From Escherichia coli (GTDB lineage: Bacteria > Pseudomonadota > Gammaproteobacteria > Enterobacterales > Enterobacteriaceae), in the NCBI RefSeq assembly GCF_016026235.1, contig NZ_CP065613.1: DNA of 64,000 nt; one strand, written 5' to 3'. The position numbers are program-made. Shown here piece by piece: positions 6,801 through 9,800 of the stretch (position 1 is the first letter of the stretch; the number at the start of each line of letters is the position of its first letter).

Positions 6801-9800
6801 ACATCTGCGCAAACTCACCAGTCACGAACCCGTGATTGGCATTATGGGTAAAAGCGGGGCCGGTAAATCCTCACTCTGTAATGCACTGTTTCAGGGGGAG
6901 GTCACCTGAGGGATCCCCAGAAAATTTAGTAAACCATTATCATATTGGTATACCGTTGCTGTAGAACTTTCAGCCCTGCGTCAAGTGACAGTGTGTTTAG
7001 TATGAGTGGAGAATGTCGAATCACATTCTCCGCCAGTTTTAATAACGAGATGACTCGCCTGTGCTTCACTGTATTTGCCTGATATTTATGATGTATCCCT
7101 TTGTTTTCCAGGCTGAAACCGCTTAACCACATAATGATACTGGCTAATGTTGCGATCAGACTCAATACCGTGACCCGCCCGGATGAATGACTGGCACCAA
7201 ACCGTAATCCAAATCCCCAGCGAGGATTTTTTTCATCCCTGAAATTTTGCTCAATTTGCATTCTACGGCTGTATAATTTCATTACCTGTTTTGGCGAGAA
7301 CTCAGTACTGTTTGTGAAAATAAACCATGGTGATTTCCCGGCAGTACGAGCTTTAGCCGTCACCGATGGTCTGGTTGCTCTTTCCTTCGAGCGTTTAAAT
7401 CAACGACCTTTAGGCTTACTTTTATAAAGATAAAAATGCCCTTCATGTTGTGCATTTTTATCTCGACCCAGCAGGCCTTCACCTAAATAAATTGCTGTCG
7501 TTGATGCTTTTGTGCCTGAGTCCGACACCTTTTCCCAGCCATTACCAACATTGTAATAATGATTGCCCAGTACCCGGCAAATATAGGTCCAGCCACGGGA
7601 GCGGAGCTGTTGGAACCATCGCCCCTGAAAACCGGCATCTGTAATAACAATGACATCAGTCCCGGGGGAAAAGCACTCAGCAAGCGATTCCAGAAAACGC
7701 TCATGTACATCTGCATTCGCTGTCTGTGATGATGGAACGACACAACTCATCAACGGTAAAGAACGCCCGTCACATGCCAGGCTTGCCCGCAAAAGCTGAA
7801 AACGAGAGGCATGATAAGCACTCCAGTCAATGAGTATCACAACACGAGACATTCCCCGCGTAATCTTTTGGGTAATTCGCTGAAAAATGGTGGAAACCTC
7901 ATTTTGCAAATGTCGATTCCCCAACAGTCGATCCACCCGCTTTATTTTGTTTTTAACTGATGCCGTACCGGTTAAATGACGCCCGATACTGGTAAGTGTG
8001 AGGGAAGCGCCATTTATTACAGCATTAGTTGCGTCAATCAGTGATTTTTGACGGTAAAGATGCAAAGGGGCCAGTATGTTGTTAAGGAAATTTTGGCATA
8101 ATGAACGTGCAGGCATAGTGGTGATCTCCTTGAAATTGTTAGCACAATCAATTAGATCACATCTCACTATGCCTGTCTTGTTTTCTGGGGATTCCTCAGG
8201 GGAGGTCACCCCGGTCAGTGATGTTCACGCCGGCACCCGGGAAGTGCGGCGCTTCCGTCTGAGTGGCCACGGTCACAGCATGATTATCACTGACCTGCCC
8301 GGGGTGGGCGAGAGCCGGGACAGGGATGCAGAGTATGAAGCCCTGTACCGTGACATTCTGCCTGAACTTGACCTGGTACTGTGGCTGATTAAAGCCGATG
8401 ACCGTGCCCTGTCTGTGGATGAGTATTTCTGGCGACACATCCTGCACCGGGGACATCAGCAGGTGCTGTTTGTGGTGACGCAGGCCGACAAAACGGAGCC
8501 CTGCCATGAATGGGATATGGCCGGCATTCAGCCTTCTCCCGCACAGGCACAGAACATTCGTGAGAAAACAGATGCGGTATTCCGGCTGTTCCGGCCCGTA
8601 CATCCGGTTGTGGCCGTATCGGCCTGCACCGGCTGGGAACTGGATACGCTGGTCAGTGCGCTCATGACAGCGCTTCCCGACCATGCCGCCAGTCCCCTGA
8701 TGACCCGCCTGCAGGACGAGCTGCGCACGGAATCTGTCCGGTCTCAGGCCCGTGAACAGTTTACCGGTGCGGTGGACCGGATATTTGACACGGCGGAGAG
8801 CGTCTGTATTGCCTCTGTTGCACGCACGGTTCTGCGTGCCGTCCGTGACTCGGTGGTCTCTGTTGCCCGCGCTGTATGGAACTGGATTTTCTTCTGAACA
8901 GTCTGCCAGGGGAAATGCCTGATTACATTGCGTTAACCAACTGAAAACATGATACACCCCCCTCATATCCACCTCTTTCTCTTGCGTGACTGCCTTGCTG
9001 TTAATAGAATAAAACGATCGATAAAACAGGTATCGATCGTTGATATCGATCGTTTATAGTGGTTAATGGCCTGCGAAAAGGCAGCTGAATCTCTTCATCA
9101 TGCAGAACGGAATTGCACACAACGGACTGATACTTCTCTGGCGGATGAGAGAGGGGAAGCATTTATGTCCGGGAAAAACCACTTTATCTGACCATGCTGT
9201 TTTGTACCTGCCGGTATCCACATTTGTGGGTACCGGCTTTTTTATTCACCCTCTGTAAGGAAAAGCTGATGAAACGACATCTGAACACCAGCTACAGGCT
9301 GGTATGGAATCACATTACGGGCACCCTGGTGGTGGCTTCCGAACTGGCGCGCTCACGGGGAAAACGCACCGGTGTGGCGGTTGCGCTGTCTCTTGCTGCT
9401 GTCACGTCAGTCCCGGTACTGGCTGCTGACACGGTCGTACAGGCGGGAGAAACCGTGAGCGGCGGAACACTGACAAATCATGACAACCAGATTGTCTTCG
9501 GTACGGCCAACGGAATGACCATCAGTACCGGTCTGGAGTATGGGCCGGATAACGAGGCCAATACCGGCGGACAATGGATACAAAATGGCGGTATCGCCAA
9601 CAACACTACTGTCACCGGTGGTGGTCTTCAGAGAGTGAATGCTGGAGGAAGCGTTTCAGACACGGTTATCAGTGCCGGAGGCGGACAGAGCCTTCAGGGG
9701 CAGGCAGTGAACACCACTCTGAACGGCGGTGAGCAGTGGGTACATGAAGGCGGGATTGCAACGGTTACCGTCATTAATGAGAAGGGCTGGCAGGCCGTCA

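What the first reader, a model, noticed from the sequence alone, without database searches (positions are those of the whole stretch)
9010..9055. Intact Dam/OxyR GATC phase-variation switch upstream of an IS-inactivated flu
The three closely spaced GATC sites characteristic of the agn43 phase switch are preserved, yet the coding region is split by an IS21-family element. The switch may still drive phase-variable transcription into a truncated passenger domain and the IS.
Basis: partly seen in the sequence, partly recalled or inferred. Interest (0 to 1): 0.4.

Follow-up and report, generated by a model that had tools for sequence, protein, structure and literature searches.

The report
Known agn43 switch, IS-broken gene
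This is the well-known Dam/OxyR on-off switch of the E. coli adhesin gene agn43 (flu), sequence-intact, in front of a copy of the gene that an ISEc12 insertion sequence has cut in two in an enteroinvasive E. coli O143 lineage: an ordinary case of gene decay.

Summary
GATC sites lie at 9016, 9035 and 9048 (GATC-N15-GATC-N9-GATC), in the same register as the K-12 agn43 regulatory region. Three GATCs this close are not rare by chance (0.7 expected per window). Homology makes the case: the -10 box, both OxyR half-sites (8/10 each, 32 bp apart) and the IsrC/IS102 leader with its terminator (Rfam, 76.7 bits) are all present. The 67-bp core is identical to cores upstream of intact 948-aa Ag43 genes in other E. 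coli, and this regulatory type is the majority type (3430 of 5426 genomes).

flu (ATG at 9269) is interrupted after codon 632 by a complete ISEc12 (IS21 family, 11167-13747, 6-bp duplication CTATGA), oriented antisense to flu. Removing it restores a clean 948-aa ORF.

One correction: the passenger and autochaperone are complete. What is detached is the beta-barrel translocator.

The same truncated product is encoded in at least 9 assemblies, including EIEC O143:H26 strain 4608-58.

The switch can probably still flip. It would give phase-variable IsrC leader RNA and a flu' transcript, but no surface Ag43. Read-through into the IS is limited by the leader terminator and probably by Rho. Already known; low interest.

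The parts
8982..8987 (+). -35 hexamer of the agn43 promoter (TTGCGT; K-12 has TTGTCC at the same position)
   Evidence: Lies 17 bp upstream of the -10 box. In the ungapped alignment with K-12 the block CTCTTG is conserved. The generic promoter scan did not call it, because only 3 of 6 bases match.
9005..9010 (+). -10 hexamer TAGAAT
   Evidence: Invariant in all 14 alleles compared. It sits 5 nt upstream of the G of GATC-I. That G is the annotated 5' end of K-12 isrC and, from memory of Wallecha 2002, the published +1.
9004..9018 (+). OxyR half-site A (ATAGAATAAAACGAT), overlapping the -10 box, +1 and GATC-I
   Evidence: 8 of 10 matches to ATAGnTnnnAnCTAT, and identical in K-12. The consensus is quoted in PMC2909390.
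9016..9051 (.). The three Dam sites: GATC-I 9016-9019, GATC-II 9035-9038, GATC-III 9048-9051
   Evidence: The spacings of 19 and 13 bp equal those in K-12 (L001 positions 818, 837, 850).
9036..9050 (+). OxyR half-site B (ATCGTTGATATCGAT), bracketed by GATC-II and GATC-III
   Evidence: 8 of 10 matches to the consensus. It lies 32 bp from half-site A, the canonical spacing described for opvAB (PMC4856963). Allelic variation among the 14 alleles compared is confined to positions 9041-9044, of which 9042-9044 are unconstrained 'n' positions.
9016..9245 (+). agn43 leader RNA, equivalent to the IsrC / IS102 sRNA
   Evidence: Rfam RF00124 match at 9014-9250, 76.7 bits against a gathering score of 46, full length. 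K-12 isrC runs from GATC-I to the leader terminator.
9210..9243 (+). Intrinsic terminator in the leader: a 12-bp stem at 9210-9237 followed by six U
   Evidence: Free energy -23.5 kcal/mol, z-score -6.55. The stem-and-U-run block is conserved in all alleles compared, with one variable loop base at 9224. flu is reported to be controlled by antitermination of IsrC (PMC5389530).
9269..11166 (+). flu/agn43 5' fragment: codons 1-632, covering the ESPR signal peptide, AIDA repeats and AC_1 autochaperone. The reading frame runs on into the IS to the stop at 11192-11194, giving a 641-aa product.
   Evidence: It is 99.7% identical to intact alleles.
11161..11166 (.). Left copy of the target-site duplication, CTATGA
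11167..13747 (-). ISEc12 (IS21 family), 2581 bp, with TGCG...CGCA ends, istA at 12013-13554 and istB at 11252-12001; antisense to flu
13748..13753 (.). Right copy of the target-site duplication, CTATGA
13754..14702 (+). flu/agn43 3' fragment: 316 codons encoding the autotransporter beta-barrel translocator, with no signal peptide or promoter of its own
   Evidence: No promoter-like site was found facing out of the IS.
14723..14755 (+). Native flu transcription terminator
   Evidence: 12-bp stem with 8 GC pairs, followed by a T-run

Best explanation
The region 8982-9268 is the standard regulatory region of an Ag43-family autotransporter gene. It contains a sigma-70 promoter whose -10 box and start point are overlapped by an OxyR tetramer site, formed by two half-sites 32 bp apart and carrying three Dam GATC targets. 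A roughly 230-nt leader (IsrC/IS102) follows and ends in an intrinsic terminator.

The mechanism is established for K-12 and inferred here from sequence identity. When the three GATCs are unmethylated, OxyR binds, blocks RNA polymerase and shields the sites from Dam (OFF). When Dam methylates them after replication, OxyR cannot bind and transcription proceeds (ON). Both states are heritable.

In this genome, from the enteroinvasive E. coli O143 lineage, a complete ISEc12 has inserted after codon 632, exactly between the passenger/autochaperone and the beta-barrel translocator, and antisense to flu. No Ag43 can therefore reach the cell surface.

The switch needs only its short cis region plus the host's Dam and OxyR, so it most likely still flips. 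Its remaining outputs would be a phase-variable IsrC leader RNA and, for transcripts that pass the leader terminator, a flu' mRNA encoding a 641-aa periplasmic dead-end product. Transcription running on into the antisense strand of istB/istA is expected to be weak, because the RNA is untranslated after the stop at 11192-11194 and so exposed to Rho.

Shown: the anatomy, the homology, the intactness of the cis elements, the identity of the IS and the lineage distribution. Inferred: OxyR binding, methylation states and the fates of the transcripts.
For: - The three GATCs are in K-12 register. Half-sites A and B and the -10 box are identical to K-12, and 44 of 58 positions of the -16..+42 region match, with all differences in the centre or at the edges.
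- The exact 67-bp core occurs upstream of intact 948-aa Ag43 genes.
- The window-type regulatory region is found in 3430 of 5426 complete E. coli genomes, including O157 cah and ST131.
- There is a full-length Rfam IS102/IsrC hit and a strong leader terminator.
- Removing 11167-13747 plus one CTATGA restores a stop-free 948-aa ORF that is 97-98% identical to intact Ag43 proteins. The 5' part is 99.7% identical to intact alleles.
- Pfam places ESPR, AIDA and AC_1 upstream of the insertion and the Autotransporter beta-domain downstream.
- ISEc12 identity, ends and target duplication are confirmed.
- The literature supports the mechanism (PMC3764049; PMC4872104; PMC13337833) and OxyR repression of agn43 in CFT073, EC958 (ST131) and 83972 (PMC4807369).
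- The truncated product is found in at least 9 assemblies, including EIEC O143:H26 strain 4608-58.
Against: - No experimental data exist for this allele in this lineage.
- The window-type allele lacks the central ATCTAT element of K-12. That element is a 7/10 half-site at +8 in K-12 only, so OxyR affinity and switching rates could differ from K-12.
- The -35 box matches the consensus at only 3 of 6 positions, and the generic promoter scan calls nothing.
- Dam and oxyR lie outside the window, so their integrity in this genome was not checked.
- The +1 position and the -16..+42 footprint are recalled from Wallecha et al. 2002, which the library does not hold.
Confidence: 0.83

Rival explanations
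1. The switch is a dead relic. Its cis elements look intact, but it no longer works as a bistable switch in this lineage. It could be locked OFF or ON because of the allele's different central sequence, altered Dam/OxyR levels, or the IS4-family insertion 0.8 kb upstream. On this reading nothing is transcribed in a phase-variable way.
For: The K-12 central element ATCTAT is absent. Both neighbouring genes are IS-disrupted, showing that the island is decaying. Another agn43::ISEc12 genome (23CRST046) has lost GATC-II, showing that such switches do decay after the gene is lost.
Against: The same core sits in front of intact Ag43 genes, and this is the majority allele type in E. coli. agn43 is OxyR-repressed in ST131 strain EC958 (PMC4807369), and an ST131 genome carries the window-type region. 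From memory of Wallecha 2002, a 101-nt region is sufficient for phase variation, so the IS4 element 800 bp away should not matter.
Confidence: 0.1
2. The switch has been kept because it retains a function after loss of Ag43. One possibility is phase-variable production of the IsrC sRNA acting in trans. Another is phase-variable antisense transcription across istB/istA and the IS end, which would modulate ISEc12 transposition.
For: IsrC is a recognised sRNA family and is complete here. The IS is antisense to flu, so any read-through would be antisense to the transposase genes. The ISEc12 ends are rich in GATC.
Against: There is no sign of selection. All seven assemblies that carry the insertion are essentially clonal across the region, with an identical 371-bp intergenic sequence and one synonymous difference in the coding sequence, so conservation is uninformative. 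No trans target of IsrC is known to me. The leader terminator and Rho polarity limit read-through (inference).
Confidence: 0.06
3. The three GATCs are a chance cluster unrelated to agn43 regulation.
For: Three-GATC clusters within 36 bp are expected 0.7 times per window, and a second one exists at 34082-34102 inside a gene.
Against: The cluster shows positional homology to the K-12 switch, an Rfam IS102 hit, a location 253 bp upstream of an Ag43 start codon, and conservation across thousands of genomes.
Confidence: 0.01

Closest known systems
agn43 (flu) Dam/OxyR phase-variation switch of E. coli K-12 (Henderson & Owen 1999; Haagmans & van der Woude 2000; Waldron 2002; Wallecha 2002)
   Same: Three GATC sites with identical spacing (19 and 13 bp). 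Identical -10 box. Identical OxyR half-sites at -12..+3 and +21..+35. The same IsrC leader and terminator, and the same position in front of an Ag43 gene in a CP4-44-like island at the dacD-sbmC-yeeA locus.
   Different: The central 12 bp between GATC-I and GATC-II, the promoter spacer and most of the leader body differ from K-12. K-12 carries the minority type; the window carries the majority type shared with O157 cah and ST131. The downstream gene is a 948-aa Ag43 variant (71% identical to the 1039-aa K-12 protein) and is IS-disrupted.
Other naturally disrupted agn43 alleles (agn43::ISEc12 in E. coli EC17, MSB1_8G, N18-04097 and 23CRST046; truncated agn43 in an ST131 isolate; ISEc23 next to the Ag43 start in AREA_502)
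   Same: The same IS element is inserted in the 3' third of agn43, leaving the regulatory region in place.
   Different: The insertion points and target duplications differ (GAAGT and CGGTC, against CTATGA here), so these are independent events. The exact junction of this window is absent from the 5426 complete E. coli genomes searched, but is present in at least 9 draft assemblies of the EIEC O143 lineage.
Salmonella gtr and opvAB Dam/OxyR switches
   Same: OxyR half-sites are bracketed by GATC pairs 13 bp apart, and paired half-sites lie about 32 bp apart (PMC2909390; PMC4856963).
   Different: Those systems use alternative pairs of half-sites upstream of the promoter, and OxyR acts as both activator and repressor. 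Here a single OxyR site overlaps the promoter and start point and acts only as a repressor.

Membership tests
agn43-type Dam/OxyR epigenetic phase-variation switch | Three Dam GATC targets in the arrangement GATC-N15-GATC-N9-GATC within the regulatory region | tested here: met
   Sites at 9016, 9035 and 9048, the same spacing as K-12.
agn43-type Dam/OxyR epigenetic phase-variation switch | An OxyR binding site overlapping the GATCs and the promoter/start point | tested here: met
   Tested in silico only. Two half-sites at 9004-9018 and 9036-9050 each match ATAGnTnnnAnCTAT at 8 of 10 positions, lie 32 bp apart and are identical to K-12. The spacing is canonical according to PMC4856963. Physical binding was not tested.
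agn43-type Dam/OxyR epigenetic phase-variation switch | A sigma-70 promoter initiating at GATC-I | tested here: inconclusive
   The -10 box TAGAAT is invariant and the -35 box TTGCGT lies 17 bp upstream. The generic scan finds no promoter. The K-12 isrC annotation starts at the G of GATC-I. No transcript data are available for this allele.
agn43-type Dam/OxyR epigenetic phase-variation switch | Location upstream of an Ag43-family autotransporter gene, with the IsrC/IS102 leader and terminator | tested here: met
   Rfam RF00124 match at 76.7 bits against a gathering score of 46; terminator; Ag43 domains.
agn43-type Dam/OxyR epigenetic phase-variation switch | Heritable, reversible ON (methylated) and OFF (unmethylated, OxyR-bound) states that depend on dam and oxyR | not testable with these tools
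   Requires methylation-sensitive digestion, SMRT or nanopore methylation calls, or reporter fusions. dam and oxyR are not in the window.
IS21 family insertion sequence (ISEc12) | Two consecutive genes: istA (DDE transposase) and istB (IstB ATPase) | tested here: met
   For istA, PF00665 rve and PF22483; for istB, PF01695 IstB_IS21 with E = 2e-67.
IS21 family insertion sequence (ISEc12) | Terminal inverted repeats ending in TG...CA, multiple internal repeats at both ends, and a short target-site duplication | tested here: met
   Ends TGCGTATT...AATACGCA were confirmed against three other copies. GGAGATC repeats are present at both ends. The target duplication is 6 bp, CTATGA.
IS21 family insertion sequence (ISEc12) | Near-identity to named ISEc12 copies | tested here: met
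   99.8-99.9% identity over the full length to copies annotated 'IS21-like element ISEc12 family'.
Ag43/Cah self-associating autotransporter (type Va) | ESPR signal peptide, AIDA-repeat beta-helix passenger, autochaperone and C-terminal beta-barrel in one polypeptide | tested here: not met
   All four modules are present, but they are split over two fragments separated by the IS. The reconstructed ORF meets the definition. The gene as it stands is therefore a pseudogene.

The most novel reading that the evidence does not exclude
An orphaned epigenetic switch has acquired, or kept, a role independent of Ag43. In the EIEC O143 lineage the Dam/OxyR switch would then make IsrC sRNA expression, or antisense transcription into ISEc12 and hence transposase expression and IS activity, phase-variable. 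A heritable methylation state would be coupled to mobile-element activity.
Probability: 0.06. Interest if true: 0.4.

Novelty: already known. Interest (0 to 1): 0.1.

Why it matters
It matters little beyond annotation. It documents that the EIEC O143 lineage has lost surface Ag43 through an ISEc12 insertion while keeping the epigenetic switch. This fits the reductive, IS-driven evolution of Shigella and EIEC.

There are two practical uses. First, in methylome data from this lineage, unmethylated GATCs at 9016-9051 should be read as the agn43 switch in its OFF state, not as a new regulatory site. Second, flu should be annotated as a pseudogene whose passenger is intact but cannot be exported.

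The locus could serve as a natural 'reporter-free' agn43 switch, for studying switching without selection acting on the Ag43 phenotype.

Tried and rejected
1. Two scans of genome contigs. The Ag43 start region gave 0 hits. The GATC-II/III core CGATCGTTNATATCGATCG gave 12 hits, all in unrelated taxa and none in Escherichia. They were therefore useless for a cross-species conservation profile, and I used E. coli complete genomes instead.

2. The primary papers (Wallecha 2002 and 2014, Kaminska 2010, Henderson & Owen 1999) are not held. The +1 position, the -16..+42 footprint and the 101-nt minimal region are cited from memory only.

3. MAFFT shifted the K-12-type alleles by one GATC unit (13 bp). 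I replaced that alignment with an ungapped one anchored on GATC-I.

4. The generic sigma-70 scan found no promoter. This reflects its thresholds and is not evidence of absence.

5. All five agn43::ISEc12 insertions have the same orientation. I rejected this as evidence of orientation bias, because my junction query contained only the istB-proximal end and could detect only that orientation.

6. The GATC pair at 58775/58794 has the same 19-bp spacing, but it lies in coding sequence, has no third site and shows no similarity. The cluster at 34082-34102 lies inside a 356-aa ORF. Both are chance.

7. I looked for an outward promoter in the IS that could drive the 3' flu fragment. None was found.

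Full report
**Observation.** The window has GATC at 9016, 9035 and 9048, all inside the stated 9010-9055. The exact architecture GATC-N15-GATC-N9-GATC occurs only here. Three GATCs within 36 bp are not in themselves unusual. Random placement of the window's 186 sites gives 0.71 such clusters per window, and a second cluster sits inside a 356-aa ORF at 34082-34102. The significance therefore rests on homology, not on counts.

**Identity of the switch.** I aligned the window with K-12 MG1655 flu (NC_000913.3) without gaps, anchored on GATC-I.
- The GATC spacings are identical (19 and 13 bp).
- The block TAATAGAATAAAACGATC, which holds the -10 box TAGAAT (9005-9010) and GATC-I, is identical.
- The block TATCGATCGTT.ATATCGATCG, which holds GATC-II and GATC-III, is identical.
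- A -35-like TTGCGT (8982-8987) lies 17 bp upstream of the -10 box. K-12 has TTGTCC at the same position.

Scanning with the OxyR half-site consensus ATAGnTnnnAnCTAT (quoted in PMC2909390) gives two 8/10 half-sites, at 9004-9018 and 9036-9050. Both are identical in K-12. They lie 32 bp apart, the spacing called canonical for the OxyR half-sites of Salmonella opvAB (PMC4856963).

From memory of Wallecha et al. 2002 (paper not held), transcription starts at the G of GATC-I and OxyR(C199S) protects -16 to +42. That region is 9000-9057 here. Within it, 44 of 58 positions equal K-12, and every difference lies in the centre (+5, +9 to +15) or at the edges. The K-12 annotation of isrC starts exactly at that G.

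**Leader.** Rfam finds a full-length IS102 (IsrC) match at 9014-9250, at 76.7 bits against a gathering score of 46. Its 3' end is a 12-bp GC-rich hairpin at 9210-9237 followed by six U, with a free energy of -23.5 kcal/mol and z = -6.55. Apart from one variable loop base (9224), the hairpin and U-run are the same in all eleven alleles aligned. flu expression is reported to depend on antitermination of IsrC (PMC5389530, citing Wallecha 2014). IsrC is therefore the terminated agn43 leader, and it is complete here.

**Is the switch intact?** Yes, by comparison with other genomes.
- The 67-bp core 8996-9062 is found at 100% identity in 15 records of complete E. coli genomes.
- In the two I opened (WP2-S18-ESBL-07 and PSS-10), it precedes an intact 948-aa Ag43 gene.
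- The window-type regulatory region is the majority type. It is covered at 80% or more in 3430 of 5426 genomes, including O157:H7 cah and ST131. The K-12 type is the minority.
- Among 14 alleles, variation inside the OxyR site is confined to 9041-9044. Positions 9042-9044 are the unconstrained 'n' positions between GATC-II and GATC-III. The window's A at 9043 equals K-12.
- agn43 is OxyR-repressed in CFT073, EC958 (ST131) and 83972 (PMC4807369). An ST131 genome carries the window-type region.

**The gene and the IS.** The flu start codon is ATG at 9269 (RBS AAGGA at 9257-9261), not the upstream in-frame ATG at 9194 listed mechanically.

A complete ISEc12 occupies 11167-13747 (2581 bp).
- Its ends, TGCGTATT...AATACGCA, were fixed by comparison with three other copies.
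- It is 99.8-99.9% identical to annotated ISEc12 copies.
- It encodes IstA (rve, Mu-transposase C-terminal domain) and IstB (IstB_IS21), both on the minus strand.
- It is flanked by a 6-bp duplication, CTATGA, at 11161-11166 and 13748-13753.

Removing the IS and one copy of the duplication gives a stop-free 948-aa ORF. This ORF is 97-98% identical to intact Ag43 proteins. The switch plus the 5' 1.9 kb of the gene is 99.7% identical to intact alleles. There are no secondary lesions, so the insertion is recent.

Pfam places ESPR (residues 6-48), the AIDA repeats and the autochaperone AC_1 (496-599) in the 5' fragment, and the Autotransporter beta-domain in the 3' fragment.

As it stands, the ORF reads nine codons into the IS and stops at 11192-11194, giving a 641-aa product. 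Without a beta-barrel it cannot be displayed on the surface (established type Va biology; inference here).

**Distribution.** The exact flu-ISEc12 junction is absent from the 5426 complete E. coli genomes searched. The exact 641-aa product, however, is encoded in at least 9 NCBI assemblies.
- One is JTCO01, which is EIEC O143:H26 strain 4608-58 (PMC4319576).
- Another (GCA_900449985.1) is identical to window 6269-14194.
- The window also carries an O143-type O-antigen cluster.

It therefore comes from the EIEC O143 lineage. All seven loci retrieved share an identical 371-bp intergenic region, with one synonymous difference in the coding sequence. The lineage is clonal here, and conservation of the switch says nothing about selection.

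Syntenic relatives such as strain C51 have an intact Ag43 at the same CP4-44-like locus, with ISEc12 elsewhere. Four other complete genomes carry independent ISEc12 insertions in the 3' third of agn43. One of them has since lost GATC-II.

**How it most likely works now.** The cis requirements of the switch are all present: promoter, OxyR site and three GATCs. From memory, a 101-nt region suffices in K-12. Dam and OxyR are core E. coli functions, although they lie outside the window. The DNA-level switch should therefore still flip between a methylated ON state and an OxyR-bound, unmethylated OFF state (mechanism: PMC3764049, PMC4872104 and PMC13337833).

ON cells would make IsrC leader RNA. 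For transcripts that pass the terminator, they would also make a flu' mRNA. Beyond the stop at 11192-11194 the RNA is untranslated and antisense to istB/istA, so Rho-dependent termination should limit read-through (inference). An IS downstream of agn43a in CFT073 has been shown to be polar on downstream genes (PMC4807369). No IS-borne outward promoter for the 3' fragment was detected.

**Verdict.** This is a textbook switch in its commonest allelic form, upstream of a recently IS-inactivated gene in a lineage known for IS-driven decay. It is already known and of low interest.

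Noticed in passing
window 6907-8198 (target duplications at 6895-6906 and 8199-8210): An IS4-family element of 1292 bp interrupts the yeeP-like GTPase gene about 0.8 kb upstream of the switch. Its inverted repeats are TGAGGGATCCCCAGAAAA and TTTTCTGGGGATTCCTCA, and it has a 12-bp target duplication, GGGGAGGTCACC. Its transposase is split into two ORFs (7400-8209 and 6926-7363, minus strand; NCBIfam NF033591). Both genes flanking the intergenic switch are therefore IS-disrupted.
   Followed up: partly
window 11167-13747 (GATC at 11186, 11209 and at 13655, 13678, 13701, 13724): ISEc12 is about three times richer in GATC than the window as a whole: 22 sites in 2581 bp, or 8.5 per kb against 2.9 per kb. 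The repeated GGAGATC motifs in both terminal regions are spaced 23 bp apart and are likely IstA-binding repeats; each contains a Dam site. This suggests possible Dam sensitivity of IS21-family end recognition.
   Followed up: no
L027, L028, L029, L030 (E. coli EC17, MSB1_8G, N18-04097, 23CRST046): Four further, independent ISEc12 insertions lie in the 3' (beta-domain) third of agn43. Three of the five insertion points (MSB1_8G, this window, EC17) fall within about 125 bp of each other, with target duplications GAAGT, CTATGA and CGGTC. This may be a local insertion hotspot. The shared orientation is an artefact of how the query was built.
   Followed up: partly
L030 (E. coli 23CRST046), regulatory region: This agn43::ISEc12 genome has GATC-II mutated to AATC. 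It is an example of the switch decaying after the gene is lost.
   Followed up: no
L026 (E. coli AREA_502) and L021 (ST131 isolate 32): These show other routes of agn43 decay. In L026 an IS66-family ISEc23 transposase gene ends about 40 bp upstream of the Ag43 start, where the switch would normally lie (the locus sequence itself was not inspected). In L021 the ST131 agn43 is annotated as a pseudogene lacking its C-terminus.
   Followed up: no
L018 1380-1410 (Serratia ureilytica CCUG 50595): An AT-rich intergenic region contains TTCGATCGTTAATATCGATCGTTT. This is the same OxyR-like half-site, bracketed by a GATC pair 13 bp apart, as at agn43 GATC-II/III. It lies next to a LuxR-type regulator gene. 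It may be another Dam/OxyR-controlled locus, or a chance near-palindrome.
   Followed up: partly
window 24001-64000: The rest of the window is the sbcB-his-gnd-ugd region, an O143-type O-antigen cluster and the colanic acid genes. It is only about 97.8% identical to the best complete E. coli genomes. This fits an EIEC O143 (phylogroup E) origin that is not represented in that collection.
   Followed up: partly
window 13722-14702: A GTG at 13722, inside the right end of ISEc12, opens a 326-aa ORF in frame with the flu beta-domain fragment. It has no signal peptide, and no promoter was detected, so it is probably not expressed.
   Followed up: no
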